63,924 nucleotides of DNA from Planctomycetota bacterium. Lineage in GTDB: Bacteria > Planctomycetota > Planctomycetia > Pirellulales > Thermoguttaceae. Each line of letters opens with the position of its first letter. The stretch's first letter is position 1. The position numbers were made by a program, and so were the translations under genes. Where the stretch lies: assembly GCA_018897395.1 (NCBI GenBank), contig JAHIKV010000324.1, positions 1 through 63,924 on the forward strand, in the 5' to 3' direction. Shown here piece after piece: positions 21,115 to 51,392 of the stretch. Under the pieces are notes generated by a model that was not told where the DNA came from, made no database searches, and worked only from the letters and a program-made list of their open reading frames with translations.

Positions 21115-21334
21115 CTTACGCCCGGCAAGCCGCCGGCGCGGGGCAAAGACCCCACGTATACCTTACCTTTGGCCCGGCGGCTGAAGCGGGGTCAACTTCC
21201 GGGTGATCCAGGAGGCCCTCGGGCACAAGAACATCTCCACCACACAGATCTACACCCACGTAGTCAATGAGGACGTCAGGCGGGCTATGAAGGGGGGGCC
21301 TGGGTTAGGTCGGAACCGCAGTGCTTACACTTGA
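21115..21334 (+). pseudogene. tyrosine recombinase 3' fragment, copy C (internally disrupted)
   Basis: LRPASRRRG, then a ~40-bp insert with a stop, then [41 protein letters not shown]...*. Core 21186-21290. The GPGLG tail is shared with copy A. Confidence 0.75.
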
Positions 21335-21381
21335 TTGCCATCATTTTCGTTGCTAATCCTCACCACTTATAGCCACAGTCC

Positions 21382-21819
21382 TTACATTTCATTGTTTTGT
21401 GAACCTTTCCAAGTCTCACCCACACCTGTGCCTTCAATTACCCGAAGGTCCTTACCTGATTTACTACATACAAACTCTTGTGATTCGGTTCCCTCAACTT
21501 CAAACACCGCAATTTCAATTTTTTCGTCTTCTTCGTGATATCGACCTCTAAGTTCACGTCCGTGTGTTTCGCCAGGTGGGGGGCCAACAAAAATGACGGC
21601 AGTACCGTCGCCAGTATCATCTCTCCGAAGCACCATTGTGTTCCCAGTGGTTCCATTTATATAGGATTTGACTTGGTTTGTATCCGAAGTACTGGTGGAT
21701 TCTTCACTCTTAGGTTCTGACGATGCTTCTTTCTGTTTTTGTTGTCCACACCCCACAACAACCAAACATCCAACAACCATAAAAACAACGACCAGGCCGA
21801 CAACAGACTTTATCGGCAT
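21382..21819 (-). CDS. lipoprotein
   Basis: Signal plus lipobox LVVVFMVVGCLVVVGCG, homologous to the N-terminus of 15663..16052. Confidence 0.6.
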   Translation of the reverse strand: MPIKSVVGLVVVFMVVGCLVVVGCGQQKQKEASSEPKSEESTSTSDTNQVKSYINGTTGNTMVLRRDDTGDGTAVIFVGPPPGETHGRELRGRYHEEDEKIEIAVFEVEGTESQEFVCSKSGKDLRVIEGTGVGETWKGSQNNEM

Positions 21820-22314
21820 CTAATCTCCCCTTCTTTCGACTTCTTTAGCAGCATCGTTATACTTGTTTGCGTTTTCAATGGCGAATGATAATTCCGCGTC
21901 ACCGGCTCTTAATATTTCTACGATTCGTTCTTCTGACCCCTCTGATAGCCCTAACGGTTGCCCTTTGGCGTTGTATTCTTCTGCACTCGCATCAAACGGG
22001 TCGAAGGCGTAGATTGCCTCAAACTTCTTAACCATAAGCTCCATGTTGTTATCACTATCGTCTTTCTCAACCCTCTCTATTGCCTCCTTGTAATCATCGT
22101 ACAGAGTTTGTAACTCGCTTCTGAATTGTTCGGGCGTATACGTCTTACCGCTGGGACTAATGTACTGTACCTCCTTAGACCCACAACCTATCGCTAACAA
22201 CCCAACTGAGAGTAAACACACAACCAGTAGAACAATGAACAGTCTCCGCAATTGAATCTCCCCCCCTGTCGTTGCCTTGCCGCTTATGGAATTACGCAGA
22301 TCCCTTTCATCCAA
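21820..22314 (-). CDS. lipoprotein, paralog of 22284..22691
   Basis: Lipobox LLAIGCG, then TPEQFRSELQTLYDDYKEA. The true start is probably internal. Confidence 0.55.
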   Translation of the reverse strand: MDERDLRNSISGKATTGGEIQLRRLFIVLLVVCLLSVGLLAIGCGSKEVQYISPSGKTYTPEQFRSELQTLYDDYKEAIERVEKDDSDNNMELMVKKFEAIYAFDPFDASAEEYNAKGQPLGLSEGSEERIVEILRAGDAELSFAIENANKYNDAAKEVERRGD

Positions 22315-22691
22315 CTGCCGAGCTGTTCGTCATTGAACGTCAAGACCTCTTCTATGATGTCCTCCTGGGCGCTGTTTGGGCCAGGTGATACCAAGTCGTA
22401 ACCCAGTTGGAAGCCCAATACCTCAAGTTTATCAGCGGCTTCAGATGCCTTGTCTAACGCATCCATGTCCATTTCCGGGCCTTCTAAGTACGCATTGCTT
22501 GCCTCTTGGTACTCCCCGTAAAGTGTTTTAAGTTCGATCCTGTATTCCTCCGGGGTCATCTCCCGGCCCCCAACAGAATAAGTGGCTACGCCGCCGCAAC
22601 CAAGTAACGACACAGCTACAAACATCAAGGCCACTAACAAGCACACACCTTTTCTCACTTGGACCCCCCCTCGTTGCCTCCTAGTTGCCAA
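22284..22691 (-). CDS. lipoprotein, paralog of 21820..22314
   Basis: Lipobox SLLGCGG, then TPEEYRIELKTLYGEYQEA. Confidence 0.55.
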   Translation of the reverse strand: MATRRQRGGVQVRKGVCLLVALMFVAVSLLGCGGVATYSVGGREMTPEEYRIELKTLYGEYQEASNAYLEGPEMDMDALDKASEAADKLEVLGFQLGYDLVSPGPNSAQEDIIEEVLTFNDEQLGSWMKGICVIP

Positions 22692-22856
22692 CCAATACTA
22701 TCACGGGACTACCCCTCCGCGGCCCTCTTCATCCTTCTCCGCCAGCTCCACTTAGCGTTAGCTCTTGCCTCCTCGAGGGATTGCTCCAACAACTCCACCT
22801 TTTTGTCCAGGACCTCCACGGTTACCTGGACCTCGTCTCTCTCCTTTTTCACCTGG

Positions 22857-23067: not shown

Positions 23068-23075
23068 GTACTCTG

Positions 23076-23702
23076 TCATTCGCCAAATGATGGGTAGAGT
23101 TTCTTCAATTTGATCCTAGCATCGTCGGTGGTGAAACGCCAGTCGATGGATGAGTTTTTAGCGTTGCGCGCTTTCTCCCACGCTGCTACCTCATCTCGTA
23201 ATCTCTGCTGGTCGGGAATCCTACGCGAGAGGCACTGGCGGGAAAGGATGCTCAACTCGATCTCCGCCATATTCAGCCAGCTGCCATGCTTCGGGGTGTA
23301 GTGAAGCTCAAGGCGGCACAGTATCCGTCTTGCCTCTTCGGGAGCGAACGCCTCGTAAAGCGAGGAGGGGCAGTGTGTGTTCAAGTTGTCCATGACCACC
23401 GTGATTCTTTTCGCACTGGGGAAGTGCTCGTCCACCAGTTCGCGCATCCCAAGAGCCCAGTCGATCTTCGTCCGCCTGTCGGTGACCTTAACATGCCGCC
23501 AGCCCTCCAAGGGCGCGAAGAACATGAACAGGTTGCTGACGCCGTTGCGCCGGTACTCGGAATCGTAGCGGCGGCCTCGGCCCTGCTTCATGGCATGAGG
23601 CTCGCGCACCTCCATGATCTGCTGCTTGCTCGTCTCATCCATGCAGACAAGGGGGCGCTCCGCGTCACAGGGGCGCGTGTACACCTCAAGAACATCCTCC
23701 AT
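23076..23702 (-). CDS. IS630 transposase, DDE catalytic part (orfB frame)
   Basis: MEDVLEVYTRP...VCMDETSKQ...VVMDNLNTH...WLNMAEIELS is typical of the IS630/Tc1 DDE domain. Confidence 0.85.
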   Translation of the reverse strand: MEDVLEVYTRPCDAERPLVCMDETSKQQIMEVREPHAMKQGRGRRYDSEYRRNGVSNLFMFFAPLEGWRHVKVTDRRTKIDWALGMRELVDEHFPSAKRITVVMDNLNTHCPSSLYEAFAPEEARRILCRLELHYTPKHGSWLNMAEIELSILSRQCLSRRIPDQQRLRDEVAAWEKARNAKNSSIDWRFTTDDARIKLKKLYPSFGE

Positions 23703-23734
23703 CTTCCATACGAACTCGGCGCTGGCAACTGGTG

Positions 23735-24199
23735 CTATACACCACTCTTTGACAAGCCACGGTTTAATTTCGTTTTTTTTAGAACCTGGCGGACCGTCTC
23801 ATGGGAGAGGCTGTCCACATAGGCAAGCTCAACCATCTTCCCGGCCAGCATGCGCAGGGTCCAGCGAGTGTGACCCTCCGGCGCCTCGCTGCATGCCAGC
23901 GCGATCAGATGCGCCTCCTGCTCACCGTCAAGTTTCCTTGCATATGGTCTCGGCTTGATGCTGCGGGCTCCCAGGGCAATGTCCATTCCCTCCTCCACAA
24001 ACCGCTGGCGGATACGTTGCACCGTCGGGAGACTGACAAGAAACGCTTCACGGATCCTCTCGTCTGTCCATCCGGCATCAGCTTTGAGCAGTACGTGTGC
24101 CCACCTGATCCTTCTTGCCGAATGTTTCCCGGTGCTGATTATCTCCTTCAGCTCGTCCCGCTCCTCCTCGGTCAGATCAACAACATATTTCTTGTTCAT
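23735..24199 (-). CDS. IS630 transposase, N-terminal HTH part (orfA frame)
   Basis: DLTEEERDELKEII...ARRIRWAHVLLKADAGW, and a second HTH with SHETVRQVLKK. Ends shortly after an A8 run. Confidence 0.85.
   Translation of the reverse strand: MNKKYVVDLTEEERDELKEIISTGKHSARRIRWAHVLLKADAGWTDERIREAFLVSLPTVQRIRQRFVEEGMDIALGARSIKPRPYARKLDGEQEAHLIALACSEAPEGHTRWTLRMLAGKMVELAYVDSLSHETVRQVLKKTKLNRGLSKSGV
23773..23780 (-). other. A8 slippery run linking transposase orfA and orfB
   Basis: On the coding strand, CUA AAA AAA ACG. A -1 slip on A_AAA_AAA, or one extra A, continues as NEIKPWLVKEWCIAPVASAEFVWKMEDVLEVY into orfB. Confidence 0.55.
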
Positions 24200-24275
24200 G
24201 ATCCCTCCTGTAGAGTATCTCCTACAGGAGAGTATACGATTCAGAACGTATCATGTCAAGCTAGACAGAGTACTA

Positions 24276-24511
24276 GTAGCATCTCGGGTGCAGAGCGTTC
24301 CGTACTCTTTTTCGAGTATGTTGGTTACAACGCGTTTCTTCTCGCTTTTGCTTTCAAACTTACCCCATTCCTTGTTTTTCATAAACGCTTCCCGGGTTTT
24401 AACGACAAACGCCTCATCCACCGCTACTTCCGGGTGGCACTTTCGGCAAAGCTCGCATATTGAGCAAACCTGACCGTTCTCGTCCCCACACTCCTTGCAT
24501 TTAACTGCCAA
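24276..24511 (-). pseudogene. 5' part of the gene split by IS630 (zinc-ribbon N-terminus)
   Basis: TTG start with a GGGGAG RBS. MAVKCKECGDENGQVCSICELCRKC... The annotated ORF runs into the IS end. Confidence 0.55.
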
Positions 24512-24666
24512 TTCTCCCCGTTTCTACGTTCTCTTACTCCTGGATATATCGTTCCACTGGTTTCCCGCCATGAAAGTCAGCCCATCTCTTCATGTGACCT
24601 TCTATGGTTCCCCTCCACTCGCTTTCCCAAGACGTTCGACGTCTCGTCGGTTTCGGGTCCCGGTAT

Positions 24667-25413
24667 TCAGTTGTCGCTGCCTCCTTCAATCTCCCTGCGA
24701 ACCCCTTCCCTGGAGCGAAGGTCTGTGTGGTCAAGAGACTTGCCGTCCCGGTAACCTTGTGAGTATGCGGTTTCGTCCCCAAAGGCGGTGAGCTTCCTTT
24801 TTACACCATTGGTCATCTTCAAATCGTTGACATAGTCTATGACCATCGCGTTTTGCGTTAACACAAGCGCTTTCGACTCTACCTGCTCTCGGAATTTGTT
24901 CTCGAGACCGCTCACGAAGCCTCCGAGGTAATCGTTTCGTATCCTCATGGTTAAGCCGCGTGAACCCTTTCTCCCCCGGGTACTCTCTTTCTTCCACTTG
25001 GTTAAGAAACGATGGAAACATGTTGTGAACGCCCCAAACGCAAACATCAAGGTCTCCTTGCAGACCGCAACATCAGTCTCCAGTCCTATGAGGACAAACT
25101 TGCTCCCCATCCTACTGCCGCCGTAATCGTCTGTCCGAACACATGGCGTTACCCTAAAGTTCTCGCAGATCGGCCTGGTGATCATGAGTTTCCACGTGCT
25201 GGCGGACTTCATGCCGTCTTCTAGCGTTTCCTGTACGACCCGCTCTTCATCTTCCTCGTCGTCCAGGTCACCGACCTCCTCCATGGTTAGCCCGGCGCCG
25301 AGAAGAATCTCCTGCGCTTTCAACAGCGCCGCGAACGCCTCTTCCTCGTATGGTGTTCCGTCGGCAAGCCTCAGTAGCTTTTTCACTTTCGTTACGGTCT
25401 GTGACTTAAGCAA
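24667..25413 (-). CDS. DUF2786-domain protein (phage/plasmid-associated)
   Basis: N-terminus KVKKLLRLADGTPYEEEAFAALLKAQEIL is the DUF2786 signature. The start may be GTG 25386. Confidence 0.7.
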   Translation of the reverse strand: MLKSQTVTKVKKLLRLADGTPYEEEAFAALLKAQEILLGAGLTMEEVGDLDDEEDEERVVQETLEDGMKSASTWKLMITRPICENFRVTPCVRTDDYGGSRMGSKFVLIGLETDVAVCKETLMFAFGAFTTCFHRFLTKWKKESTRGRKGSRGLTMRIRNDYLGGFVSGLENKFREQVESKALVLTQNAMVIDYVNDLKMTNGVKRKLTAFGDETAYSQGYRDGKSLDHTDLRSREGVRREIEGGSDN

Positions 25414-25475
25414 CTATGGTTCAACCCCTTTGTTTCCCATCCTCAAACCGAATATCATCTACTATGTCGATAACA

Positions 25476-25730
25476 TCAATGAACTCGTCGGCAGCCCGTA
25501 TCAACTCCTCGGATGCCCTGTACCCGTTTATCTCGTAGATCTCTCTTGCCTCCGTGCTGGCCAGAATAGTAATATGCTCTGAGCAGCATCCCGTTCTGCG
25601 TCAGTAATTTCAGGAGCTTCACGTAATCAACCTTGAGTTGTAACGGTTCCCAGGTGGCCGATCGCCAGTTCCACCCATCCATGAATATTGCTGTTCGCCC
25701 CAGCTGTGTCACGGTGTAAGAAAGGTTCAT
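25476..25730 (-). CDS. NYN/LabA-like N-terminal fragment, possibly frameshifted
   Basis: TAIFMDGWNW...VDYVKLLKLL...LLRAYYY resembles the start of NYN-domain RNases. The frame ends early, and an adjacent frame stays open to about 25425. Confidence 0.35.
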   Translation of the reverse strand: MNLSYTVTQLGRTAIFMDGWNWRSATWEPLQLKVDYVKLLKLLTQNGMLLRAYYYSGQHGGKRDLRDKRVQGIRGVDTGCRRVH

Positions 25731-25741
25731 CTTGTTGATCG

Positions 25742-26656
25742 TTACCCACCTCTTATCTGTTCGTTCCGTCCGGTTACGCCGGCTCCAACGAGTATCTCGC
25801 CCTTATCCTCTCGCGCTTCGTACGCTTTTTCCGCCCTTGCGTGGTCTTCAACCGCATAACAGTAGATGCACCCGTGAGGGCACGAGTTATATGCGCCGAT
25901 GTCTCGAGACTCAAAACAGCAACACCCTTCCCTGTTCCCCTTCCTTTTTGCCTTGATTGGGTAGCCGGCCACGTCTGACAACCTGTAGGCGTCAACGCAG
26001 GCTGCCTCTTGCGCCCCGCCAACCGCATATTTCTTCTGAGAGCAAACGCTTAACTGCATCCTTCTTTCCGCCGCCACCTGCACCAGGTCTGACACCAGCT
26101 CTCTTTTTGACCAGTCTGATGGGTCAAACCACCTGAATCCCTGTTCTGCCGCAGCCCTGTTCATGTTCGTCGTGGTTTTTTGATACATCTGTGCGAATGA
26201 AACCACTACCTCATCTACCGCCCCCTCCAATGCTCTGGCCATTGCGTTGAACCTCGTTATATGCTGTTCTAACGTCATCGTGTTTGTCACCACTATTGGG
26301 TCATACCTCCACACCACGGTCCTCGGACCGTACCGTTCAGCCACCGCATGGGCCTGCTCAACAGAATCCCTCCAATCAACAACGCGCCCTTCGAGCTCTC
26401 TGGGATAACCATTAATCGTGTGCTGGATGATAAACGGGTAGCCGAGCGCGTCTATTTCTTCCAAATGGGGCAAGAAAGGGCCTAAGTTCTTGGTCCAGAA
26501 CACAAAGCCGTCAACATCGTCTCTGCCTAGAGGCACCCGGTTCTCGGTGCCGTTGTAGGGGTTACTTACCTTGCAGTGCCCCTCACGGAGCCTGGCCATG
26601 AACCATTCCCCGTAAAACGCCGGTATGTCGGTTCTGTAGCTTGCAGATATTATCAA
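25742..26656 (-). CDS. DUF1848-domain protein
   Basis: IISASYRTDIPAFYGEWF, VDGFVFWTKN, and a C-terminal Cys cluster CCCFESRDIGAYNSCPHGCIYCYA. Confidence 0.75.
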   Translation of the reverse strand: MIISASYRTDIPAFYGEWFMARLREGHCKVSNPYNGTENRVPLGRDDVDGFVFWTKNLGPFLPHLEEIDALGYPFIIQHTINGYPRELEGRVVDWRDSVEQAHAVAERYGPRTVVWRYDPIVVTNTMTLEQHITRFNAMARALEGAVDEVVVSFAQMYQKTTTNMNRAAAEQGFRWFDPSDWSKRELVSDLVQVAAERRMQLSVCSQKKYAVGGAQEAACVDAYRLSDVAGYPIKAKRKGNREGCCCFESRDIGAYNSCPHGCIYCYAVEDHARAEKAYEAREDKGEILVGAGVTGRNEQIRGG

Positions 26657-26724
26657 TATTCCCCTTTGGCTGCTTGCGCCCTATTATCCTACAAGGCATC
26701 AACATTCTCACGTGGACGTTGTAG

Positions 26725-27042
26725 CTACCACCCCCTTGCTATTGTCTCTGTGAACGTGTATCCGCGGCCAAGCCCGGTCGGTGCCGACACCCTCAGGGCT
26801 TCTCCAGATGCCCGCGCGGCGACTATCTCTCGAACCCCGTCGCCCGTGAGGTCGTCATTGTTGAAGAAGAGATCGTCCACCATCGCCTGCACTACAGCAT
26901 CCTCATCTTCATAATCGAACTCCGCCAGCTCGCTTGGCTCCATGAGCGAAAGGTAATACTTGACCAATATCGCCCCTGCCTTGCGCCACGCCATCCGGAA
27001 CTGCTCGTTGTCTCGGTCTCTTTCTGGTATAGTTATTGCCAT
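26725..27042 (-). CDS. hypothetical protein
   Basis: Started at ATG 27042 (GGAGGT RBS), downstream of the conserved promoter at 27089-27117. Confidence 0.5.
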   Translation of the reverse strand: MAITIPERDRDNEQFRMAWRKAGAILVKYYLSLMEPSELAEFDYEDEDAVVQAMVDDLFFNNDDLTGDGVREIVAARASGEALRVSAPTGLGRGYTFTETIARGW

Positions 27043-27088
27043 GTTCTCTACCTCCGTTTCAAGGGGCTCTTGCTTTTTGCCTAGAACC

Positions 27089-27117
27089 ATAATATTATGG
27101 TAGAGATAGTACGTCAA
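27089..27117 (-). promoter_or_regulatory. element-type promoter
   Basis: GTTGACGTACTATCTCTACCATAA-TATTAT (TTGACG, 17 nt, TATTAT). Confidence 0.7.
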
Positions 27118-27135
27118 CATATGGAGGTGTCGCAC

Positions 27136-27549
27136 ATGGTGGAACAAGAGAATCAGTATCTGGTCTTCTACGAGAGAGTCCTATTGGCCTCAGCTATCAT
27201 CTTTGGGTTCATCGGCGGCTTCACGATTTATCTCACCTGCACGCCTGACACCCCTGCCAATTCAACGGTTCAGGTATTCCTCATAATATCTCTGGCCATG
27301 CTGTCCTTTTCTGTCTTCTCTGGCCTTCTCGCGCCTCTTTACTTCATGTCTTACTGCACCAAAGATCCGTACGGATCCCTTCTGTTTTTCAGGAGGAAGG
27401 AAGAGGTTAAGGGAGACGAAGCCCTGAACCAGTTGCAGAAGGACAAGAAGCGAAATTACGAGAGCCTCTTTCTTTTCCAGTTGACGTTTTTCGTTCTTGG
27501 CCAACTTTTCCTTTTCGTTGCCATATTCGTCAACATGTTCTGGGACTGA
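27136..27549 (+). CDS. small membrane protein
   Basis: ATG 27136 preceded by GGAGGTG. Three hydrophobic segments. AT-richer than its surroundings. Confidence 0.45.
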   Translation: MVEQENQYLVFYERVLLASAIIFGFIGGFTIYLTCTPDTPANSTVQVFLIISLAMLSFSVFSGLLAPLYFMSYCTKDPYGSLLFFRRKEEVKGDEALNQLQKDKKRNYESLFLFQLTFFVLGQLFLFVAIFVNMFWD

Positions 27550-27797: not shown

Positions 27798-27801
27798 GTG
27801 T

Positions 27802-44927: not shown

Positions 44928-45602
44928 CTACCGCACTTGGTCTATCAGGCTTTTTCCCTGGCTAACGAGTGTTTCTAGGCCAACTTCCTTTAGTACCTCT
45001 CCCCAGTTCGCCTCGCTCAACACCTTGCTCCAGTCGAGAGTTTCCAGCACTCCCTTGGCGTCGGCCTCCTCCACCGTTTCCCCGGGTCCGCTTTTCACGC
45101 TAATCGTTTTCTCCACTTTTTCCCAGTCCACCTGATCGAGAAGGCTCTCCCAGTCAATCTTGCCATTCATTATCGCCTTGCTCATGTCTATCTTCTCTGC
45201 CACCTGGTCCAACGGCAACGGAAACTCCACGGCTGATCCTATTGATTCTAGCAATACCTCTATCTGCGGCACTTTCAGCTCTAGGGGTATGCCGTTGCCG
45301 ACATCGAACTTTACAGGAACTTCCGACAGGCCGCTCATCCTTATGTCCACCGGTGGGACTTCTTCCATTTTCACCTCAGCAGTGATCGGCGGTATCTCTC
45401 CCGCTTCCACCCTGACCGGTATCTCCCCGCTCATGTCCACGTTGACGTTGAGGTCAACTTCGGGGTCTTCCATCTTCACCTTCATGGAAGCTCCTGGCTC
45501 CATCTCCACAGAAGTTTTTATCGCCCCACAGCCTGCCGCCAGCATCACTCCCATCGCCGCCACGACTGTTATTGCCACCACTATTGTTGCCCATTTTCTC
45601 AT
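44928..45602 (-). CDS. lipoprotein, unknown function
   Basis: Lipobox MLAAGCG. 224 aa, acidic. Confidence 0.55.
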   Translation of the reverse strand: MRKWATIVVAITVVAAMGVMLAAGCGAIKTSVEMEPGASMKVKMEDPEVDLNVNVDMSGEIPVRVEAGEIPPITAEVKMEEVPPVDIRMSGLSEVPVKFDVGNGIPLELKVPQIEVLLESIGSAVEFPLPLDQVAEKIDMSKAIMNGKIDWESLLDQVDWEKVEKTISVKSGPGETVEEADAKGVLETLDWSKVLSEANWGEVLKEVGLETLVSQGKSLIDQVR

Positions 45603-45627
45603 CTTGCTCTTCCTCCTGGTCGCTCTT

Positions 45628-46512
45628 CTACTTGCCGGCTCCGGCCGCCCTGGTCATGGCTCTTGCCGTTTTCATTATCCCTTTCGCCATGTCTTCAATC
45701 CTCGTGCACGCCTTTATTTGCTCTTCATCCCCTGCTTCTATCTCTCCTAGCAGCTCCGTGACCTCTTCGTACACCTTTTCCAGTGTCCTTGCCACTCTCT
45801 CTACCCCCACCCTCGGGCTCACCCTCGGGCTCTTTCCCTTTCTCTCGCTTGCGAGGGACGCCGCTTTCGCCACCGACCATCCTTCTTTGTCGCATTCCAC
45901 CAGTGTTGGCGCAGGCAAGCTGTCTACCGAGAGGTACTTCCTCACCATCCTGGCACTTATGTCGAGCTTCCCGGCAACGGCCTCCCATCCTTCTCGCACT
46001 TCCACGTTCCCGCCGGCCTGCTCTGTTCTCAGCCGCCGCATCTCCTCTTCATATATCTCGGTTACCGCCCTTGCTCTTTTAGACAAGGGGAGGTCTCTTC
46101 GCTGGAAGTTCTCAACTATTGCTATCTCTCGAGCCGTTCTGCCGGTCAGGTCGCAGATTCTCGCCTCGATTTCTCTCCTCCCAGCCAGTTTAACTGCCAG
46201 GTATCGCCTTTCGCCCGCGATTATCTCGAACCTGCCCCCCTCCGCCTGTCTCACCAGTATCGGATGTATCAGCCCGTGTTCCTTGACCGATTTGGCAAGG
46301 TTCTTGACCTCCTCCAACGATACGCTGCCCCGCGGTTGCTCCGGATTTGGGTCTACAATGCTTACCGGGATCAGCCTTATGCTTTGCTCCTCTTGAAGCC
46401 CCTCGACTTTTCTCAGCTCCTGCATTTTCTCACTGTCGAACGGGATTACGTTTGACGGGCTGGATGTCCCCTCTTCCAGCGGATTCCTCTTCTTTAGTTG
46501 CTTTCCGGCCAT
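45628..46512 (-). CDS. parB: ParB-like partition/nuclease-domain protein
   Basis: ParB N-terminal box HGLIHPILVRQAEGGRFEIIAGERRYLA. Immediately downstream of parA. Confidence 0.85.
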   Translation of the reverse strand: MAGKQLKKRNPLEEGTSSPSNVIPFDSEKMQELRKVEGLQEEQSIRLIPVSIVDPNPEQPRGSVSLEEVKNLAKSVKEHGLIHPILVRQAEGGRFEIIAGERRYLAVKLAGRREIEARICDLTGRTAREIAIVENFQRRDLPLSKRARAVTEIYEEEMRRLRTEQAGGNVEVREGWEAVAGKLDISARMVRKYLSVDSLPAPTLVECDKEGWSVAKAASLASERKGKSPRVSPRVGVERVARTLEKVYEEVTELLGEIEAGDEEQIKACTRIEDMAKGIMKTARAMTRAAGAGK

Positions 46513-47319
46513 CTATACCACCTGCCGTTCCGCTTCTTCTGCCAACGTCTTCAGGTTTTCATTCTTCTCTAGTCTCTCGACTATCTCCCTCGCCATACAG
46601 CGATACTGTTCCGCTCCCTCGCACCTGGGTGCGTACTCTGTGACCGGCAGCCCCACTGCCGGCGCTTCCGCTATCTTGACCGTTTTCTTAATGAGGCTCC
46701 TGAGGAGCGTGGGGCCGAAGTATCGCTCCGCCTGCTCCAGGTTTTCTCTGGCGTCTCGCGTGGACTTCTCATAGAACGTTACCGCTACCCAGTATTTAAG
46801 TGAGGGGTTCATGGTTTCGAGTACCCGCCCCAATATGTTCAAGAACTGTCCTACCCCCAGCATGTCAAAGAATTGGCTTCTCGTTGGGATTATTGCCCTG
46901 TCGGCCGCTACCAGTGCATTTGTCGTGAGGAAGTCCTGCCCGGGCCCGCAGTCTATTATCGTAAAGTCGAAGTTGCCGTTGAGGGATGCCAGTTGTTCTT
47001 TGAGTGTTTCGACATCTCCCCTCCGGTACAGCGCATACTGGCTGTCCGTCAGTTCCGCCCGTCCTCCCGCTACCCATATGTTCTTGACAGGCCCCCTTTG
47101 CATGGCCTGCTCTACGCTTTTATCGCCCCTCATCACGTCGGCCATGGACTTCCCCATTACGGCATTCAGGCCCATGCCCACCGTGAGGCTCGCCTGCGGG
47201 TCGATGTCCACCAGTAGCACCTTGTACCCCATTTCCCCCAGGGACGCGCCCAGGTTGATGCAGGTCGTGCTCTTGCCCACCCCACCTTTGTTGTTCACTA
47301 CCGCTAATATTCTCATCAT
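46513..47319 (-). CDS. parA: ParA/Soj partition ATPase
   Basis: Deviant Walker A NNKGGVGKST after start MMRILAVV (ATG 47319 or 47316). The ORF-track start lies inside the promoter. Confidence 0.9.
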   Translation of the reverse strand: MMRILAVVNNKGGVGKSTTCINLGASLGEMGYKVLLVDIDPQASLTVGMGLNAVMGKSMADVMRGDKSVEQAMQRGPVKNIWVAGGRAELTDSQYALYRRGDVETLKEQLASLNGNFDFTIIDCGPGQDFLTTNALVAADRAIIPTRSQFFDMLGVGQFLNILGRVLETMNPSLKYWVAVTFYEKSTRDARENLEQAERYFGPTLLRSLIKKTVKIAEAPAVGLPVTEYAPRCEGAEQYRCMAREIVERLEKNENLKTLAEEAERQVV

Positions 47320-47341
47320 AAAAGATATTGCCTCATCAATT

Positions 47342-47370
47342 ATTATATTCCCCGGGTCTCTGTATGTCAA
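47342..47370 (-). promoter_or_regulatory. parAB promoter
   Basis: ATTGACATACAGAGACCCGGGGAA-TATAAT. Confidence 0.65.
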
Positions 47371-47397
47371 TTGTCTGTGCCCCTGTTGGCCATAATT

Positions 47398-47422
47398 AAA
47401 ACCCCCGCTTGACGGGGGTTTT
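47398..47422. terminator. bidirectional intrinsic terminator
   Basis: AAAA-CCCCCG-CUUGA-CGGGGG-UUUU between the HIRAN gene and the parA promoter. Confidence 0.75.
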
Positions 47423-47501
47423 CTCGTGTCCTTGCTCTTATTCCTTATTCTTCAAACCCGTGCGTTCTCGCTCACCCTGGACTCATGTTCTCCCCGGCAT
47501 T

Positions 47502-47864
47502 TCAGCTTGCACGTTTTATCTCGATCACCAACCCCCTCGTCTTCCCCTCTTCTTTTCCCGTAAGCGCAGTCACCTTTGCCCTGAACCTGGCGCCTCCCGC
47601 TATCGACTTTGACATCGACTCTGCCAGCTTTTTCTTCCGCCCGTCCGGCGTTTTCCTGTACCGCGGCACGTATCCGACCAGCTTCTTCTCTGCTCCCTCT
47701 TCTCTTACCACCGCAACCGCGTATGGGTCGGTCTTGTTGGTCGGGTGTCTCATTATGCTCAGGCTCTCCCCCACCCTGACTTTCCTCACGGTTTCTTGCC
47801 TCTTGTTGAAGCTTACTCCCACTACCTTTGTCGGGAACGGTTTCGGAAACGGCAGCGTCTTCAC
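47502..47864 (-). CDS. HIRAN-domain protein
   Basis: GTG 47864 overlaps the upstream stop (GTGA). VVGVSFNKRQ...GESLSIMRHPTNKTDPYAVAVV...KLVGYVPR fits HIRAN. Only the last 120 codons of ORF 47502..48416 are used. Confidence 0.7.
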   Translation of the reverse strand: MKTLPFPKPFPTKVVGVSFNKRQETVRKVRVGESLSIMRHPTNKTDPYAVAVVREEGAEKKLVGYVPRYRKTPDGRKKKLAESMSKSIAGGARFRAKVTALTGKEEGKTRGLVIEIKRAS

Positions 47865-49606
47865 TTTTTCCACCCTCTCGTGTAATCCTTGATTGCCTTG
47901 GTTAGTCTTGATGGCAACGTCTCTGTGTCCTCTGCGAATACGTACCTTGAGTAAATCTTCTTTAGGTGGTTGTCGCTCTTTGGCCCTATGTAGATACACA
48001 TCACGTCCGCAAACCTCTCGACATCCTTCACGCTTATCCTTGTGTCCTCTATTGCCCCTGCCCCCCAGTAGTCGATGCTTTGGGGCAGTCCGTCGCTTAT
48101 CACAACCATCAGCTTTCTTCTGTTCTTCTCGGCCCTCAGGTACTCTCCCGCAAGATTGATAGCCAGTCCGTCCCTGTTGTTGTCTCTTGCCCTTACGTTT
48201 GCCAGTTTCGCCGAGAGTGACCTGGTTACCCTTTCCCCGAACTTGATGTATGCCCTCAGCCGCAAGTTGTCCGTTACGCCACAGTTGTCGAACCCCATTA
48301 CCGAGTGCCTTATCCCAAGCTCTCTTAGCGCTTCGTGTAACGCCACCGCCGCTTCTCTCAAGTGCTTTTCTCTTGTGTACATAGACCCGCTTTCGTCGAG
48401 CAGCACCATCACACAAGGTTCTCTGTTTACCTTTGCCCGCTGGTTCCTGAATATACTCTTCTCCCCTAGAACTGACCTGTACACCAGCGGCGGGTCCACG
48501 GTCCCCCTTCTCTCTTCCCGCCTTACGTCGTCCAGCTCTTCCCTCAGTAGTATCAACTTCAACGCCTTCTTGAGCTTCTTTGCGGCGGGTTTTGTCACCG
48601 CCTTTACGTTCTCATACTCTGCCAGATCCCCGTCCGGCCTTTCCAAAACCACTTCTGCGGAGAACCTTAGTACCCGATTTTTGTACTCTTCTTTCCCCCC
48701 TCTTATTGCTTTTTCCAGTCCATTTTCCCCCTCTGCGTTCGCCCTGCCCGTTTCCTCGATCTCCCTCTCGATCTCCCGCAGCAGTTCTTCCTCTCTGTCT
48801 TCTCCCCCCTTTTCTGCTTCTCCGAGCACCGTCACGTCTTCCTCTTTGCCTTCCGGTATCGCTTCCCCCCCCACGTCCACCCTTATCTTCGGCCCCTCTC
48901 CCGGCATATCGTCACTTGATAGTTGAGGCTCCCCTACCCCGGGAAAATCCTTCGCTCCTGGCGGGATCAGGTCTTTTACTATCTCCCATATGTCCTCTGC
49001 CCCCGCCAGCACGTCCAGCGGGTCTCGTGCATACCTTGCCTCTGCCACCTTCGGCTTTACTCCCTCAACGATGTTCCTTATTGCGCTTCCCGATATCCCG
49101 TCGCTTGACTTCTTGAAACGGGTCCTTATCTCTCCAAGCTTTGAGAGTTCCCACATGGCACTCCACACCTGTTGCCACGCCGTCGCTTCCCCTTCTATCT
49201 TTTCATACATGTGTTCGTTCATCGTGCCCAGCAGCGCGTTCGCCCTTTTGACCGCCTGTCTCAGCAGTAACTCTATCCGCCCGTCCTCGAGCAAGTTCCA
49301 GATATTCTTTATCCCGTTCTTTGACTCTTCCTTCCGTCCTGCTTCGACTACCGTCTCTGTCGGTGTGTACAGGGCATGCCCCGCTTCGTGGAGCACCATG
49401 GCCTTGGCTATGTGCAATTCTTCCATGCCACCTTCCATCTCTTCCACGCGGATCAGGTTCCTCACGTGCTCATAGGACGCCCCGATTCCCTCGCCGTACA
49501 GGACCCTTATCGTCCAGTCATTCGCCACCCGGTGCGCGTACCGGCTCAAGAAACCTGCGATTACGTCTCTGCTTACGCTGGCCTTCTCCTTAAGCAGCAA
49601 GCTCAT
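47861..49606 (-). CDS. vWA-domain protein with N-terminal HExxH motif (CobT-like)
   Basis: MVLHEAGHALYTP near the N-terminus, an acidic linker, a vWA MIDAS motif VLLDESGSM, and VVISDGLP. Confidence 0.8.
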   Translation of the reverse strand: MSLLLKEKASVSRDVIAGFLSRYAHRVANDWTIRVLYGEGIGASYEHVRNLIRVEEMEGGMEELHIAKAMVLHEAGHALYTPTETVVEAGRKEESKNGIKNIWNLLEDGRIELLLRQAVKRANALLGTMNEHMYEKIEGEATAWQQVWSAMWELSKLGEIRTRFKKSSDGISGSAIRNIVEGVKPKVAEARYARDPLDVLAGAEDIWEIVKDLIPPGAKDFPGVGEPQLSSDDMPGEGPKIRVDVGGEAIPEGKEEDVTVLGEAEKGGEDREEELLREIEREIEETGRANAEGENGLEKAIRGGKEEYKNRVLRFSAEVVLERPDGDLAEYENVKAVTKPAAKKLKKALKLILLREELDDVRREERRGTVDPPLVYRSVLGEKSIFRNQRAKVNREPCVMVLLDESGSMYTREKHLREAAVALHEALRELGIRHSVMGFDNCGVTDNLRLRAYIKFGERVTRSLSAKLANVRARDNNRDGLAINLAGEYLRAEKNRRKLMVVISDGLPQSIDYWGAGAIEDTRISVKDVERFADVMCIYIGPKSDNHLKKIYSRYVFAEDTETLPSRLTKAIKDYTRGWKK

Positions 49607-51131
49607 CGTCTATCATGTCCACAAGGGACACCCTTTCCTCTTCATCTTTCGCAACCGCCGGCACTATGAGCAGTTGCGCTATCTTCTTTGGGCTTTCCCC
49701 GTCCGTGTACTTCGCCCAGGTTATGAGGTTCCTTGTTGTTATCGGTTGCGAGATCTCTCCGTGTTCATACTGCTTCCTGGTCTTCTGCGCGATTTCTACC
49801 ATCTTCCTTATTAGTCCGTTGTCCTTGTTCCCGCTTCTCTTCGCTACCACCTTGGTCTCTTCGGGTGTGTCCAGGTAATCAAGGTATATCTTCACGAACC
49901 TGTCCTCTGTTGAGGGGTCAAGCCCCCCGGCACCCAGGTACTCGTCGCCTTCATTTGCGGTTGCGATAACTCTTGTGTGCCTGTGTAGCTTCATCGTCCT
50001 GTCCCCCAGTTCAAGCACCCTATCCTGTAGGAATGAGTTAAACACCATCGCTCTCTCCGGCTTGAGGCTTCTTATCTCGTCAACAAGTAGCCCGTACCCA
50101 TTCCTAGCTGCTATCATCAACTTGCTTTCTACCTCATGTGTTGACCCGTCCTTTATGCCAGTGCTTTTCACCAGTGAACAGTAGTAGTCAAAGTCGCTGT
50201 TCGCGCTTATTGTCACCATCGGCATCCCCATGTGTGCATACACCGCCTGCGCCAGCGTACTTTTGCCTATCCCTGCGGGGCCGATGATCATTAGCGGGTC
50301 CTTCTCGTGAGTTATGGTAGTCGCCAGTTTTTCTTCTCCCATCCTGTCAACGTAGAACACCCGCTTTGGTACCATCTTCTCTTCGGCCTTGGTTAACTTG
50401 CGCTCTACCACAAACTGGCTCCAGTCGATATTTTCCACCTTCCTTTTCGCTGCGCCCTTTTCTACCTTCGCTTTCCCGAGCACGTCTGTTCCCAACCGCA
50501 GTTCCCTCCCCTTGTGGCTTCTGAACGTCTTCTCGCGGTCCGGTATGTCCATCAACTTGAAGTCTTCGTTCATCTTGTGTGTCCATCTCATCTGGTAGTA
50601 CGTCTCGTCCATCAACCGTATGAGCTCTTTTTCCTCTTCGCTTCCGACCGTCATGGTAATAGCCCCCGCAGCCATGATCTTGTTTATACCCTCTCTTGTC
50701 TCGCTTCCCCCTCTGACCGCCTCAAGGCAAAGCATCGCTACAGGTATGTGGTAACAAGAGGCATGCCCGCTTGAGGGGTCGCAGGCCGGGCACTCATGTG
50801 ACACCAGTATCTCTCCGCTATGTTTCCCGCGCGTAATCCTCATGTGGTATGTCTTGCTCGCGGTGCTCCCGCTTGCCATCGCAACAAAAATGCCCTCTGG
50901 GTTTTGCTTGTCTTCGTACACCCTTGTTTGCCACAGTGCCTTTACGACCACCGCTTCCATCTTTCCGCTCACTACGGTGTGGGCCTGTACCTTGGGCGTT
51001 TTTGCGTCCAGGAGTTCTACGTGCGTGGTTCCGAAGTAATCCCTGTCTATTATCTTCTCCAGGGCACCCCTTTGTAACAACCAAAGGTCTGTGCTCCGCC
51101 CGAAAAGTTGTGTGAAATTGTACTTTGCCAT
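49590..51131 (-). CDS. MoxR/CobS-like AAA+ ATPase with N-terminal SWIM zinc finger
   Basis: SWIM-type CPACDPSSGHASCYH. Walker A IIGPAGIGKST, Walker B LLVDEI. ATG 51131 follows the promoter at 51151-51179. Confidence 0.8.
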   Translation of the reverse strand: MAKYNFTQLFGRSTDLWLLQRGALEKIIDRDYFGTTHVELLDAKTPKVQAHTVVSGKMEAVVVKALWQTRVYEDKQNPEGIFVAMASGSTASKTYHMRITRGKHSGEILVSHECPACDPSSGHASCYHIPVAMLCLEAVRGGSETREGINKIMAAGAITMTVGSEEEKELIRLMDETYYQMRWTHKMNEDFKLMDIPDREKTFRSHKGRELRLGTDVLGKAKVEKGAAKRKVENIDWSQFVVERKLTKAEEKMVPKRVFYVDRMGEEKLATTITHEKDPLMIIGPAGIGKSTLAQAVYAHMGMPMVTISANSDFDYYCSLVKSTGIKDGSTHEVESKLMIAARNGYGLLVDEIRSLKPERAMVFNSFLQDRVLELGDRTMKLHRHTRVIATANEGDEYLGAGGLDPSTEDRFVKIYLDYLDTPEETKVVAKRSGNKDNGLIRKMVEIAQKTRKQYEHGEISQPITTRNLITWAKYTDGESPKKIAQLLIVPAVAKDEEERVSLVDMIDDELAA

Positions 51132-51150
51132 GCTTATCACCTCAAGTATT

Positions 51151-51179
51151 AATATATGTTCTATGGGATAGTACGTCAA
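51151..51179 (-). promoter_or_regulatory. element-type promoter (AAA+/vWA/HIRAN operon)
   Basis: GTTGACGTACTATCCCATAGAACA-TATATT. Confidence 0.7.
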
Positions 51180-51281
51180 CATTTAACGTTGTTTTTTTGT
51201 ATATCAAATCTTTACTTGAAACAAAAACTTATTGGGCTCGACCGGCCCTCAGGGCCTCCCTAACGCCCTGGTGAAGAAAGG

Positions 51282-51392
51282 GCGCGGTAAACTTTTCTGG
51301 CCACCCAAGAAGCCCTGGGCCACAAGAACATCTCAACCACACAGATTTACACCCACGTTGTCAATGAGGACGTTAGAAGGGCGATGAGTTAG
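51282..51392 (+). pseudogene. tyrosine recombinase 3' fragment, copy D
   Basis: ...[28 protein letters not shown]. Core 51282-51387. The tail is of the same type as copy B. Confidence 0.75.

What the first reader, a model, noticed from the sequence alone, without database searches (positions are those of the whole stretch)
21115..51392. A ~30-kb plasmid-like integrated element with no recognisable integrase or virion genes
The interval between recombinase-3'-end copies C (core 21186-21290) and D (core 51282-51387) differs in character from its flanks.

- It encodes parA/parB, ssb, an NAD-dependent ligA with its own promoter, a Cas4-like nuclease, a PC4-like ssDNA binder and a histone-H1-like protein.
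- It also encodes DUF2786 and DUF1848 proteins, a radical SAM protein and an AAA+/vWA/HIRAN operon.
- It carries an iteron-like array, an IS630 and the tRNA array.
- Nearly all genes point one way, in short operons that each start with the same promoter type.

I could not recognise an integrase, relaxase or T4SS, or any capsid, portal or terminase. If it moves, it may depend on a recombinase encoded elsewhere. The repeats themselves are recombinase gene ends, so one candidate is the recombinase whose 3' end it targets.
Basis: partly seen in the sequence, partly recalled or inferred. Interest (0 to 1): 0.8.

Follow-up and report, generated by a model that had tools for sequence, protein, structure and literature searches.

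The report
Integrase-less island in recombinase-repeat array
A 30-kb block of foreign plasmid- or phage-like genes, with its own promoters, partition genes, a DNA ligase and a full set of 30 tRNAs, lies between two copies of the tail end of a small recombinase gene; related bacteria keep small defence-gene cassettes between the same repeats, and since the block has no integrase or transfer genes, another element's or the host's recombinase must have inserted it.

Summary
Copies C (21186-21290) and D (51282-51388) are two of four direct copies of the last ~35 codons of a 188-199-aa Xer-like tyrosine recombinase ("rec"). All the listed genes are present. Pfam and PHROGs find no integrase, relaxase, T4SS or virion gene, and no unassigned ORF exceeds 235 aa.

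The interpretation needs revising in four ways.
- The foreign low-GC region starts at copy A (15.4 kb). C-D is only the largest of three segments in a tandem array.
- Related metagenomic genomes carry arrays of the same repeat, with intact rec genes and 1.5-3-kb defence or lipoprotein cassettes. The site is therefore an insertion hot spot, and D abuts native chromosome.
- C-D is composite: a coherent main block (~24.3-51.2 kb, private promoter motif TTGACNNACWATC, 9 copies against 0.03 expected), a lipoprotein segment of different composition, and a recent IS630.
- "Plasmid-like" is unproven. No Rep, helicase, primase or polymerase was found, and distant relatives of the AAA-VWA pair sit beside DnaE in unclassified elements.

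No circular or empty-site form was seen. The head rec copy is truncated, so the block is probably locked in. I rate it a new variant of tandem accretion at a gene's 3' end, of moderate interest.

The parts
15408..15631 (+). Copy A. It holds rec nucleotides 394-569 (box II HxxR, His and the catalytic Tyr region) plus ~60 nt of conserved downstream sequence. It is the head of the array, is 5'-truncated, and is fused at 15358-15408 to a remnant of an antisense FCS-type Zn-finger ORF.
   Evidence: nhmmer E 5e-61; PF00589 positions 121-169; the same junction occurs in L022
15632..19585 (-). Segment A-B (E1), low GC. It holds lipoprotein and membrane-protein genes, an MBL-fold lipoprotein (17272-18174) and an N-terminal remnant of a serine recombinase (16073-16339).
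   Evidence: GC3 0.57
19586..19766 (+). Copy B: motif M (19586-19660) followed directly by S (rec nucleotides ~460-569).
19767..21074 (.). Segment B-C (E2), made of insertion-sequence debris: an IS630 C-terminal remnant (20091-20285), a Zn-ribbon ORF (20561-20794) and an IS1380/IS4-like end remnant (20808-21155).
21075..21345 (+). Copy C, the left boundary of the finding. It comprises motif M (21075-21154), an internally deleted S-like piece, S (21186-21290) and ~55 nt of downstream sequence shared with copy A and with intact rec genes in L018.
21382..22691 (-). Three lipoprotein genes (145, 164 and 135 aa) with GC3 of 0.47. A homologue of the 135-aa gene lies in a different S-bounded cassette in L017/L020.
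23071..24272 (-). IS630-family insertion sequence (DDE_3 ORF at 23076-23702, HTH ORF at 23735-24199) with inverted repeats CTAGTACTCTGTC/GACAGAGTACTAG. It is a recent insertion, absent from strain GCA_018896015.1.
24273..27147 (-). Left operon of the main block: u140, DUF1848, an NYN-like 84-aa ORF, DUF2786+DUF7168 and a Zn-ribbon ORF. It is driven by the promoter at 27117.
27633..30584 (-). Array of 30 tRNA genes covering all 20 amino acids, with three CAT anticodons, every gene encoding CCA, and a density of about 10 per kb.
30650..40036 (-). DNA-metabolism operons: the H1-like ORF (30978-31262), LigA (31931-33925), PC4-like ORF (35037-35261), PD-(D/E)XK Cas4-like nuclease (37034-37990), radical SAM/B12 protein (38641-39765) and about 12 small acidic or Zn-finger ORFs with no family.
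40243..40299 (-). Heptamer array, six GTAAACC-like units at a period of about 10, lying in a 340-nt intergenic region. It is a candidate set of iterons or a ParB centromere.
40377..43146 (-). Operon of five ORFs with no family match (231, 235, 117, 157 and 139 aa).
43846..44059 (-). Promoter, ~180-nt structured RNA candidate and intrinsic terminator. It lies next to a divergent control region containing two small + strand ORFs (43255-43807).
44254..47370 (-). SSB (44254-44799), a 224-aa lipoprotein, ParB (45628-46512) and ParA (46513-47319), with a perfect TTGACA-17-TATAAT promoter at 47370.
47502..51179 (-). Operon of AAA (MoxR/CbbQ class, 49590-51131), CobT-like VWA (47861-49606) and HIRAN (47502-47864), with its promoter at 51179.
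51229..51388 (+). Copy D, the right boundary. It has a weak M-like stretch and then S. The 5' third of S is decayed with a 1-nt indel; the conserved part is 51306-51388. Its right flank is native chromosome.
   Evidence: (L018 7177-8459 is 76% identical to 52591-51306)
27105..51179 (-). Span of the block-specific extended promoter motif TTGACNNACWATC. There are nine exact copies, all on the - strand at operon starts.
   Evidence: (expected 0.03)

Best explanation
The interval is the largest insert in a tandem accretion array that has built up at the 3' end of a small, catalytic-domain-only, Xer-like tyrosine recombinase gene (rec). The repeat unit S is the last ~106 nt of rec.

Shown:
- Four S copies in direct orientation divide a 36-kb low-GC region (15.4-51.4 kb).
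- The rightmost copy, D, abuts native chromosome.
- Related genomes carry intact rec genes and arrays of S, with 1.5-3-kb defence or lipoprotein cassettes between the copies.
- C-D consists of a ~27-kb coherent foreign module, a 1.4-kb lipoprotein segment and a recent IS630.
- The module has its own promoter regulon, ParAB, SSB, LigA, a Cas4-like nuclease, a MoxR-VWA-HIRAN operon and a complete 30-tRNA set.
- The block encodes no integrase, conjugation or virion functions.

Inferred:
- The module entered as a circle carrying one S copy, by site-specific S x S recombination.
- A recombinase supplied in trans catalysed this. The most economical candidate is the host rec, whose own gene end is the site. 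The logic would resemble that of Xer-exploiting elements, pdif modules or cis-mobilizable elements.
- While extrachromosomal, the circle would be segregated by ParAB, with the GTAAACC array as candidate centromere or iterons.
- It would be transcribed from its TTGACGTACTATCC-type promoters and would decode its lower-GC3 genes with its own tRNAs.
- In this strain it is probably fixed. The head rec copy is a fragment, C and D are only 81% identical with runs of at most 14 nt, and only the integrated form is seen.

Whether the module can replicate on its own is open. It may be a reduced derivative of a larger DnaE-encoding phage- or plasmid-like replicon.
For: Repeats and the recombinase:
- The four copies and their extent are shown.
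- A full-length rec of 199 aa (PF00589 positions 2-169 of 172) is 91% identical to copy A in a housekeeping context in L009. It scores as XerA/C/D-like over the catalytic domain only.
- Arrays with intact and short copies occur in L015, L017, L018 and L022.
- Short copies keep 79-91% identity in S, except the internally truncated L017 copy at 9209 (67%). The 106 nt upstream of them are at background, 36-55%.
- Cassette cargo in relatives is type III R-M, GmrSD_N+HEPN, Eco57I-like, and SDH-protease+Mrr.

Native right flank:
- rec converges on a DUF5719 gene in L010, and rec lies next to a DUF5719 gene in L018, L039 and L030.
- The S copy in L018 at 8474 has the same right flank as D but a different left flank.

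Foreignness and coherence of the block:
- GC3 and tetranucleotide usage differ from the flanks.
- The promoter motif has 9 copies against 0.03 expected, all between 27.1 and 51.2 kb.
- The CobT-like protein has only 5 hits at E<=1e-30 among 1.84 billion representative proteins, and is absent from the related species.
- The IS630 is absent from a sister strain while the rest of the sequence is contiguous.

No mobility or virion genes. The largest unassigned ORF is 235 aa.
Against: - No circular junction or empty site was found. All contigs from six or more samples are 97-100% identical to the integrated arrangement.
- No intact rec is in the window, and the rest of the genome could not be searched.
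- No dyad-symmetric core site is visible in S, and S does not fold like an attC.
- S conservation over whole rec genes is only slightly above that of the rest of the gene (0.89-0.91 against ~0.85).
- No repeat separates the lipoprotein segment from the main block, so the left end of the 27-kb module is not defined.
- No Rep, helicase, primase or polymerase was found, so autonomous replication is unsupported.
- A serine-recombinase remnant in segment A-B shows that at least one neighbouring insert may have used its own integrase.
Confidence: 0.55

Rival explanations
1. The block is a decayed integrative element, that is, a cis-mobilizable element in the strict sense. It once carried its own integrase, for example a large serine recombinase on the reverse strand next to attL, as in Dehalococcoides ssrA islands. 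It targeted the rec 3' end, brought a replacement 3' end with it, and later lost the integrase gene.
For: - A serine-recombinase N-terminal remnant lies at 16073-16339(-), close to copy A.
- Dehalococcoides ssrA-GIs show the same layout: tandem islands, direct repeats of the target gene's 3' end, and a reverse-strand serine integrase at attL (PMC3146451).
- Decay of integrated elements to CIMEs followed by accretion is well documented (PMC5704250).
- The IS630 and other IS debris show that this locus decays.
Against: - No integrase remnant of any kind lies within C-D.
- The ORFs next to C are lipoprotein genes.
- Small cassettes in relatives (1.5-3 kb) also lack integrases, while intact rec genes sit in the same arrays.
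Confidence: 0.25
2. The block is a fragment of a large phage or megaplasmid: an early or DNA-metabolism region containing a tRNA array. It became trapped in the hot spot by homologous or illegitimate recombination and was never a discrete 30-kb mobile unit.
For: - Phage-type gene content: CobS/CobT-like pair (phrog_249, phrog_17276), exonuclease phrog_69, radical SAM phrog_9298 (40% identity to Marinitoga camini virus 1), DUF2786 phrog_421, LigA and a tRNA array.
- Dense consensus promoters.
- Relatives of the AAA-VWA pair lie beside DnaE, RecR-like and sigma-like genes and NAD-related genes.
- tRNA arrays of 21-37 genes are known on mycobacteriophages and mycobacterial plasmids (PMC5966550).
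Against: - Both ends coincide with S copies.
- There are no structural genes and no relatives in IMG/VR or INPHARED for the CobT-like, radical SAM, PD-(D/E)XK or ParB proteins.
- The tRNA array is not syntenic with any phage or plasmid array.
- C and D share runs too short (<=14 nt) for efficient RecA recombination.
Confidence: 0.12
3. The interval is ancestral chromosome. It is an unusual but native region carrying the host's ligA and main tRNA set, and the repeats are incidental recombinase pseudogenes.
For: - LigA is a canonical full-length enzyme (881 bits).
- The tRNA set is complete and all genes encode CCA.
- All strains sampled carry the block at the same place.
Against: - GC3 is 0.66 against 0.77, and tetranucleotide correlation with the flanks is 0.48-0.70 while the two flanks correlate at 0.95.
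- The private promoter motif is absent from the flanks.
- The D-equivalent junction in L018 has other DNA on its left.
Confidence: 0.04

Closest known systems
Dehalococcoides ssrA-specific genomic islands (tandem islands downstream of ssrA; PMC3146451)
   Same: Several foreign low-GC islands lie in tandem, each bounded by a direct repeat of the 3' end of one target gene. A conserved short motif sits just upstream of the repeats. Some islands lack integration genes and are thought to be carried along by accretion.
   Different: The target here is the 3' end of a tyrosine recombinase gene, not tmRNA. The repeat is ~83-106 nt rather than 20 nt. Most ssrA-GIs carry a serine integrase module (dsiB) at attL; C-D has none, and only a remnant exists in segment A-B.
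Cis-mobilizable elements (CIMEs) and accretion at att sites (Streptococcus ICESt1/3 family; reviewed in PMC5704250)
   Same: The element is flanked by att-like repeats, lacks integration and transfer genes, and lies in tandem with other inserts at the 3' end of a gene.
   Different: A CIME is by definition derived from an ICE or IME by decay. There is no trace of such ancestry here. The content is replication, partition and tRNA genes rather than ICE remnants.
Elements that exploit a host Xer-type recombinase: IMEX (CTX-phi, VGJ-phi, the gonococcal island) and pdif modules of Acinetobacter plasmids (from my own knowledge)
   Same: They have no recombinase of their own, a host Xer-family enzyme acts in trans, and they form tandem arrays at one site. 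The rec here is most similar to XerA/XerC/XerD catalytic domains.
   Different: The site is not dif (28 bp near the terminus). It is the coding 3' end of the recombinase gene itself. rec lacks the N-terminal core-binding domain, and rec is multi-copy in relatives.
Integrons
   Same: A recombinase gene lies next to an array of promoter-less-looking cassettes, each ending in a copy of a recombination site. The cargo includes defence genes.
   Different: rec is not an IntI. The best integron-integrase model scores 100 bits against a cut-off of 265 and covers only part of the protein. S is coding sequence and does not fold as an attC hairpin. Several intact rec copies occur per array. Cassettes of 1.5-30 kb carry their own promoters.
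tRNA array units on mycobacterial plasmids, prophages and chromosomes (PMC5966550)
   Same: An actinobacterial setting with 26-37 tRNA genes in 3-12 kb on mobile DNA, redundant with the host set.
   Different: There is no synteny or sequence relationship beyond single tRNAs. The density is higher (30 genes in 2.95 kb). The carrier has no rep, relaxase or phage structural genes.

Membership tests
Prophage / defective prophage | Capsid, portal, terminase or tail genes | tested here: not met
   Pfam and PHROGs scans of all called genes in 21.3-51.3 kb gave no structural family. No unassigned ORF exceeds 235 aa.
Prophage / defective prophage | Integrase or other recombinase at one end | tested here: not met
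   PF00589 and PF00239 are hit only outside C-D (copy A and 16073-16339). The nhmmer rec profile finds only the four 3' fragments.
ICE / actinomycete AICE | Relaxase or FtsK-like TraB, T4SS, integrase | tested here: not met
   No such Pfam family was hit. ORF sizes exclude hidden relaxase or TraB genes.
Plasmid (integrated) | Partition system | tested here: met
   ParA (AAA_31, 1.9e-43; NF041546) and ParB (ParB_N, 1.9e-25; TIGR00180). There is no canonical parS.
Plasmid (integrated) | Replication initiator and origin | tested here: inconclusive
   No Rep, helicase or primase family was hit. A heptamer array at 40243-40299 could be iterons. There is no DnaA-box cluster. AF2 models of the 231- and 235-aa ORFs were unusable (pLDDT 41 and 32).
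Plasmid (integrated) | Existence of a free circular form | not testable with these tools
   Only assembled contigs were available, and all show the integrated junctions.
Cis-mobilizable element / accretion array | Flanked by direct repeats of the att site at the 3' end of a target gene, in tandem with other inserts | tested here: met
   Four direct S copies. D abuts native flank. Arrays are present in relatives.
Cis-mobilizable element / accretion array | Lacks its own recombination and transfer genes | tested here: met
Cis-mobilizable element / accretion array | Derived from an ICE or IME by decay | tested here: inconclusive
   There are no ICE or IME remnants inside C-D. A serine-recombinase remnant occurs only in segment A-B.
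IMEX / Xer-dependent modules | Integration at dif or pdif (28-bp XerC/XerD site) | tested here: not met
   The repeat is the coding 3' end of rec, 83-106 nt long. No dyad-symmetric 11-6-11 core was seen by inspection of the alignments.
IMEX / Xer-dependent modules | Recombination catalysed by a host Xer-family enzyme in trans | not testable with these tools
   rec is Xer-like in its catalytic domain, but its activity on S is unknown.
Integron | IntI-type integrase with the IntI-specific insertion | tested here: not met
   TIGR02249 scores 99.9 bits against a cut-off of 265 and matches residues 114-185 only.
Integron | attC sites that fold as imperfect hairpins | tested here: not met
   ssDNA folds of the S copies on both strands give z-scores from -1.5 to +2.1 against shuffles.
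tRNA array unit (sensu Tran 2016, Morgado & Vicente 2018) | High number and density of tRNA genes in one block | tested here: met
   30 tRNA genes in 2.95 kb, compared with 2-9 per kb in PMC5966550.

The most novel reading that the evidence does not exclude
In this lineage of uncultured Actinomycetota, a host-encoded, catalytic-domain-only Xer-like recombinase and the last ~100 nt of its own gene form a cassette-capture platform. It would work like an integron or pdif-module system but be built differently: the recombination site lies inside the recombinase's coding 3' end. The platform would collect integrase-less DNA circles ranging from 1.5-kb defence cassettes to this 30-kb module, which carries partition genes and a complete tRNA set but has no recognisable replication genes of its own.
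Probability: 0.25. Interest if true: 0.8.

Novelty: new variant of a known kind. Interest (0 to 1): 0.55.

Why it matters
If the repeats are live recombination sites served by the small host recombinase, this would be a new way for bacteria to collect integrase-less DNA at one chromosomal address. It would sit beside integrons, Xer-exploiting elements and tRNA/tmRNA-targeting islands, and it would occur in a poorly known group of Actinomycetota.

The 27-kb module is also unusual in its own right:
- It carries a complete minimal tRNA set, LigA, SSB, ParAB and a MoxR-VWA-HIRAN operon under a private promoter motif.
- It has no recognisable replication initiator, integrase or transfer genes.
- Its signature proteins have almost no relatives among 1.8 billion representative sequences.

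It points to an unclassified family of mobile replicons whose other members encode DnaE.

If the block turns out to be only a fixed remnant, it is a well-documented but ordinary example of island accretion and decay.

Tried and rejected
- Exact-protein look-ups for LigA, the 530-aa AAA ORF and P0065 found nothing. This was probably a matter of start-codon choice.
- IMG/VR scans with the CobT-like, radical SAM, PD-(D/E)XK and ParB proteins gave no relatives. A scan with the promoter motif gave one unrelated chance hit, L040.
- tblastn of the AAA protein against phages and plasmids gave only distant MoxR/CbbQ/CobS-type hits of 23-31% identity.
- The radical SAM protein's best phage hit lies in Marinitoga camini virus 1 among hypothetical genes, with an uninformative context.
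- The tRNA array matched phages and plasmids only at the level of single tRNAs.
- There is no canonical parS and no DnaA-box cluster.
- PADLOC gave no defence system, only DUF1848 (RTasDUF1848-like) and Cas4-like hits.
- PDB sequence searches for the 231- and 235-aa ORFs found nothing. Single-sequence AlphaFold models had pLDDT 41 and 32, so no fold search was run.
- No hidden S or M copy lies at the junction between the lipoprotein segment and the main block (nhmmer). No short repeats link 21.3-24.7 kb to 50.9-51.5 kb.
- The attC-like hairpin idea for S was rejected.
- SSV-type integration, in which the integrase gene is split by integration, was rejected. No rec 5' part lies upstream of B, C or D, and the AAA operon ends 150 nt from D.
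- Excess DNA-level conservation of S within intact rec genes was weak.
- The first literature search on tRNA arrays was unhelpful.

Full report
**What the window is**

The 63,924-nt window is a whole contig of an NCBI MAG labelled 'Planctomycetes bacterium' (locus tag KKA28_). Its only DNA-level relatives are Actinomycetota MAGs and metagenome contigs.

The outer parts are ordinary chromosome. They hold histidine kinases, response regulators, a NIPA-type transporter, a short-chain dehydrogenase and two giant DUF5719/TIG surface proteins. GC there is about 0.60, GC3 is 0.77, and the two sides correlate at r=0.95 in tetranucleotide usage. Between about 15.3 and 51.4 kb the GC falls to 0.50-0.56.

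**The repeats**

Four direct copies of one sequence lie at 15478, 19652, 21186 and 51283. They are the last ~35 codons of a tyrosine recombinase, [36 protein letters not shown], read on the + strand.

- A profile of seven full-length homologues hits exactly these four places and nothing else in the window.
- Copy A is longer (recombinase nucleotides 394-569). B, C and D start at about 460-464 and end at 569, just before the stop. The 5' third of D has decayed.
- Differences between copies within the core are almost all third-codon-position changes.
- C and D are 81% identical, with a longest identical run of 14 nt.

**Content of C-D**

The gene calls came from my ORF pick and from public gene calls on identical contigs.

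- ParA and ParB, SSB, and a canonical full-length LigA.
- A PD-(D/E)XK nuclease with the Cas4-type four-cysteine pattern.
- A PC4-like protein.
- A protein with a Lys/Ala-rich histone-H1-like tail.
- DUF2786+DUF7168, and DUF1848.
- A B12-binding radical SAM protein with a CxxxCxxC motif.
- An operon of MoxR/CbbQ-class AAA, CobT-like VWA and HIRAN proteins.

The tRNA array holds 30 genes: 29 from ARAGORN plus one more CAT tRNA seen by Rfam. It covers all 20 amino acids, has three CAT anticodons, and every gene encodes CCA. Six GTAAACC-like heptamers at a period of about 10 sit at 40243-40299.

No integrase, excisionase, relaxase, coupling protein, T4SS, capsid, portal, terminase or tail family was hit. 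About 20 ORFs have no family, but none is longer than 235 aa. That rules out a hidden portal, terminase, large relaxase or TraB.

**The block as a foreign regulatory unit**

- Sigma-70-like promoter matches are three times the shuffled expectation (30 against 10.5+-3.5).
- The operon-start promoters share an extended -35 motif, TTGACGTACTATCC.
- The relaxed pattern TTGACNNACWATC occurs nine times in the window against 0.03 expected. All nine are on the - strand between 27,105 and 51,179. None occurs in the flanks or in segments A-C.
- GC3 is 0.66 throughout this span, and its two halves correlate at r=0.91.
- The CobT-like protein has one homologue at ~40% identity and only five hits at E<=1e-30 among 1.84 billion representative proteins. 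The AAA protein has two homologues at 43-44%.
- Related species were assembled from the same kinds of samples and lack both proteins. The block is therefore accessory, not core chromosome.

**C-D is not one homogeneous element**

- The IS630 copy (23071-24272, perfect terminal inverted repeats) is missing from the otherwise identical strain GCA_018896015.1. There, 24273 joins 23070 directly.
- The three lipoprotein genes next to copy C have GC3 of 0.47. Their tetranucleotide profile resembles the main block only moderately (r~0.5) and the flanks hardly at all.
- A homologue of one of them (88% identical over 259 nt) lies in a different repeat-bounded cassette in L017/L020.
- No repeat or decayed copy separates the lipoprotein genes from the main block. 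The left end of the 27-kb module therefore lies somewhere between 22.7 and 24.7 kb and is not sharply defined.

**What the repeats are**

A DNA-pattern scan of GTDB genomes and JGI metagenomes with the invariant core found 13 loci.

- *The recombinase.* Several loci hold full-length genes for a 188-199-aa protein made of the catalytic domain only. It matches PF00589 end to end and scores best against XerA/XerC/XerD models over their C-terminal halves. The active-site motifs RISEAL, HVLRH and LGH...IYTH are present.
- *Family size.* The family has 58 clusters at E<1e-40, mostly on short contigs.
- *Assembly breaks.* Long contigs tend to end right at this gene. A 100-kb contig stops 233 nt after it, and the Actinomycetota MAG contig stops about 930 nt after it.
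- *Arrays.* Where assemblies read through, there are arrays. L018 has two intact genes and two short copies within 9.5 kb. L017 has four partial copies. L015 has one near-complete gene, a 5' fragment and one short copy.
- *Cargo.* Between the copies lie a type III restriction-modification pair, a GmrSD_N+HEPN pair, an Eco57I-like enzyme, an SDH-protease+Mrr pair, lipoproteins and small Zn-finger ORFs.
- *Identity step.* Short copies keep 79-91% identity to intact genes in the last 106 nt, apart from one internally truncated copy (L017 at 9209, 67%). The 106 nt upstream are at background, 36-55%.
- *Motif M.* A conserved ~60-nt motif precedes the short copies in five different contigs, and precedes B and C here.

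The recombinase gene lies next to a DUF5719 giant-protein gene in L010, L018, L030 and L039. The copy in L018 that abuts that gene shares D's right flank (76% over 1.3 kb) but has unrelated DNA on its left.

Copy D therefore marks the native chromosomal side, and everything from A to D has accumulated at the recombinase gene's 3' end.

**Mechanism**

The layout is that of tandem accretion at the 3' end of a target gene. This is known for tRNA- and tmRNA-targeting islands. In Dehalococcoides, many islands lie downstream of ssrA, each ending in a repeat of its 3' end (PMC3146451). It is also known for CIME-ICE accretion in streptococci (PMC5704250).

Two features are unusual here. The target is a recombinase gene, and the inserts, this 30-kb one included, lack integrases while intact copies of that recombinase sit in the same arrays.

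The simplest reading is that circles carrying one copy of S recombine with a chromosomal S through the small Xer-like enzyme acting in trans. I put the whole package at 0.55. Within it:
- A foreign insert delimited by S copies in a hot spot is well supported.
- The identity of the enzyme is inferred.
- Autonomous replication is unproven.

Points against present mobility:
- Copy A is a fragment fused to a remnant of an antisense Zn-finger ORF, and the same junction occurs in L022.
- No intact rec is in the window.
- Contigs from at least six samples and three MAGs show only the integrated arrangement at 97-100% identity.

**Rivals**

1. *A decayed element that lost its own integrase (0.25).* A serine-recombinase remnant sits on the reverse strand near copy A, where dsiB sits in Dehalococcoides islands. 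Nothing comparable lies in C-D.
2. *A trapped fragment of a large phage or megaplasmid (0.12).* The gene content has a phage flavour. The only relatives of the AAA-VWA pair lie beside DnaE, RecR-like, sigma-like and NAD-related genes, or beside a PD-(D/E)XK nuclease. Against this, both ends coincide with S, and nothing related exists in IMG/VR, INPHARED or PLSDB.
3. *Ancestral chromosome (0.04).* Composition, the private promoter motif and the rarity of the proteins all argue against it. It can only be excluded by finding a second ligA and a dispersed tRNA set in the full genome.

**Comparison and novelty**

The region works like a CIME/IMEX-type passenger in an accretion array. It fails the defining tests for prophage, ICE/AICE, integron and IMEX (see the membership table). 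As a plasmid it passes only on partition.

The tRNA block qualifies as a 'tRNA array unit' of the kind described on mycobacterial plasmids and phages (PMC5966550), but it is unrelated to them in order and sequence.

I rate it a new variant of a known kind, with interest 0.55. The array-level reading is the more novel possibility (probability about 0.25): a recombinase whose own 3' end serves as a cassette-capture site.

Noticed in passing
window 43846-44059 (- strand): Candidate ~180-nt structured RNA lying between a TTGACG-17-TAAGAT promoter and a strong intrinsic terminator (43882-43854). Its MFE is -69 kcal/mol against -49.1+-3.9 for shuffles (z -5.1). It matches no Rfam family. It could be a regulatory, copy-control or primer RNA of the block. 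A 76-aa ORF (43780-44010) overlaps it.
   Followed up: partly
window 27105-51179 (- strand): Extended promoter motif TTGACGTACTATCC, followed by about 9 nt and then TAnnAT, at nine operon starts (0.03 expected). It is absent from the flanks, from segments A-C, and from the distant relatives L011, L037 and L038. No sigma factor or regulator that could read it was identified.
   Followed up: partly
window 19586-19660 and 21075-21154; L010 1723-1653; L015 3540-3582; L017 5994-6058 and 9175-9214; L018 3299-3225 and 9306-9232: Conserved ~60-nt motif 'M' (…GGATCCTCCCGAGGCCCTAAGAGCCCCCCTAACGCCAGGCAAGCCGCCGGC…) precedes the short recombinase-3'-end copies in several genomes. Its own 3' end looks like an internally deleted further copy. 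Its function is unknown.
   Followed up: partly
window 10042-11757 (- strand): Group II intron with an RT/maturase ORF (Rfam RF02001 and RF01998). It is absent from a 97%-identical strain (L025), so it is a recent insertion.
   Followed up: partly
window 16073-16339 (- strand): N-terminal remnant of a serine recombinase (PF00239, 1.2e-7) in segment A-B, on the reverse strand close to copy A. This is the position of the serine integrase dsiB in Dehalococcoides ssrA islands.
   Followed up: partly
window 15309-15408 and 15584-15650; 21291-21345; L016 706-864; L018 8912-9223: Small FCS/TRASH-like Zn-finger coding remnants ([14 protein letters not shown]; IKCKHCG) lie on the reverse strand immediately beside recombinase copies. 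An intact 52-aa ORF converges on the recombinase stop codon in L016.
   Followed up: no
window 14569-15180 (- strand): The short-chain dehydrogenase gene lacks its N-terminal ~85 residues (the Pfam match starts at profile position 86). It is truncated where the array begins.
   Followed up: no
window 20808-21155 and 63516-63924; L017 10641-12214: Remnants of an IS1380/IS4-like element, whose 455-aa transposase is intact in L017. One remnant is at the end of the contig, which may explain the assembly break. An IS630 C-terminal remnant lies at 20091-20285.
   Followed up: no
whole window: NCBI labels the contig 'Planctomycetes bacterium', but the recombinase copies (up to 91% identity) and a histidine kinase gene (75%) match Actinomycetota MAGs (KR13_S3.mb.41, KR13_N2.mb.8). 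The contig was probably mis-binned or mislabelled.
   Followed up: partly
L017 1572-5495; L018 3418-4979; L015 3645-4970; L031 975-2704: The cassettes between recombinase-end repeats in related genomes carry defence genes: a type III R-M pair, GmrSD_N+HEPN, an Eco57I-like enzyme, and SDH protease+Mrr. The hot spot acts as a defence island in those genomes.
   Followed up: partly
window 51472-56655 and 11881-14502 (- strand): Two giant paralogous DUF5719/TIG/BNR surface proteins (1727 and 873 aa) bracket the foreign region. The larger has internal ~117-nt repeats at 53.8-56.3 kb.
   Followed up: no
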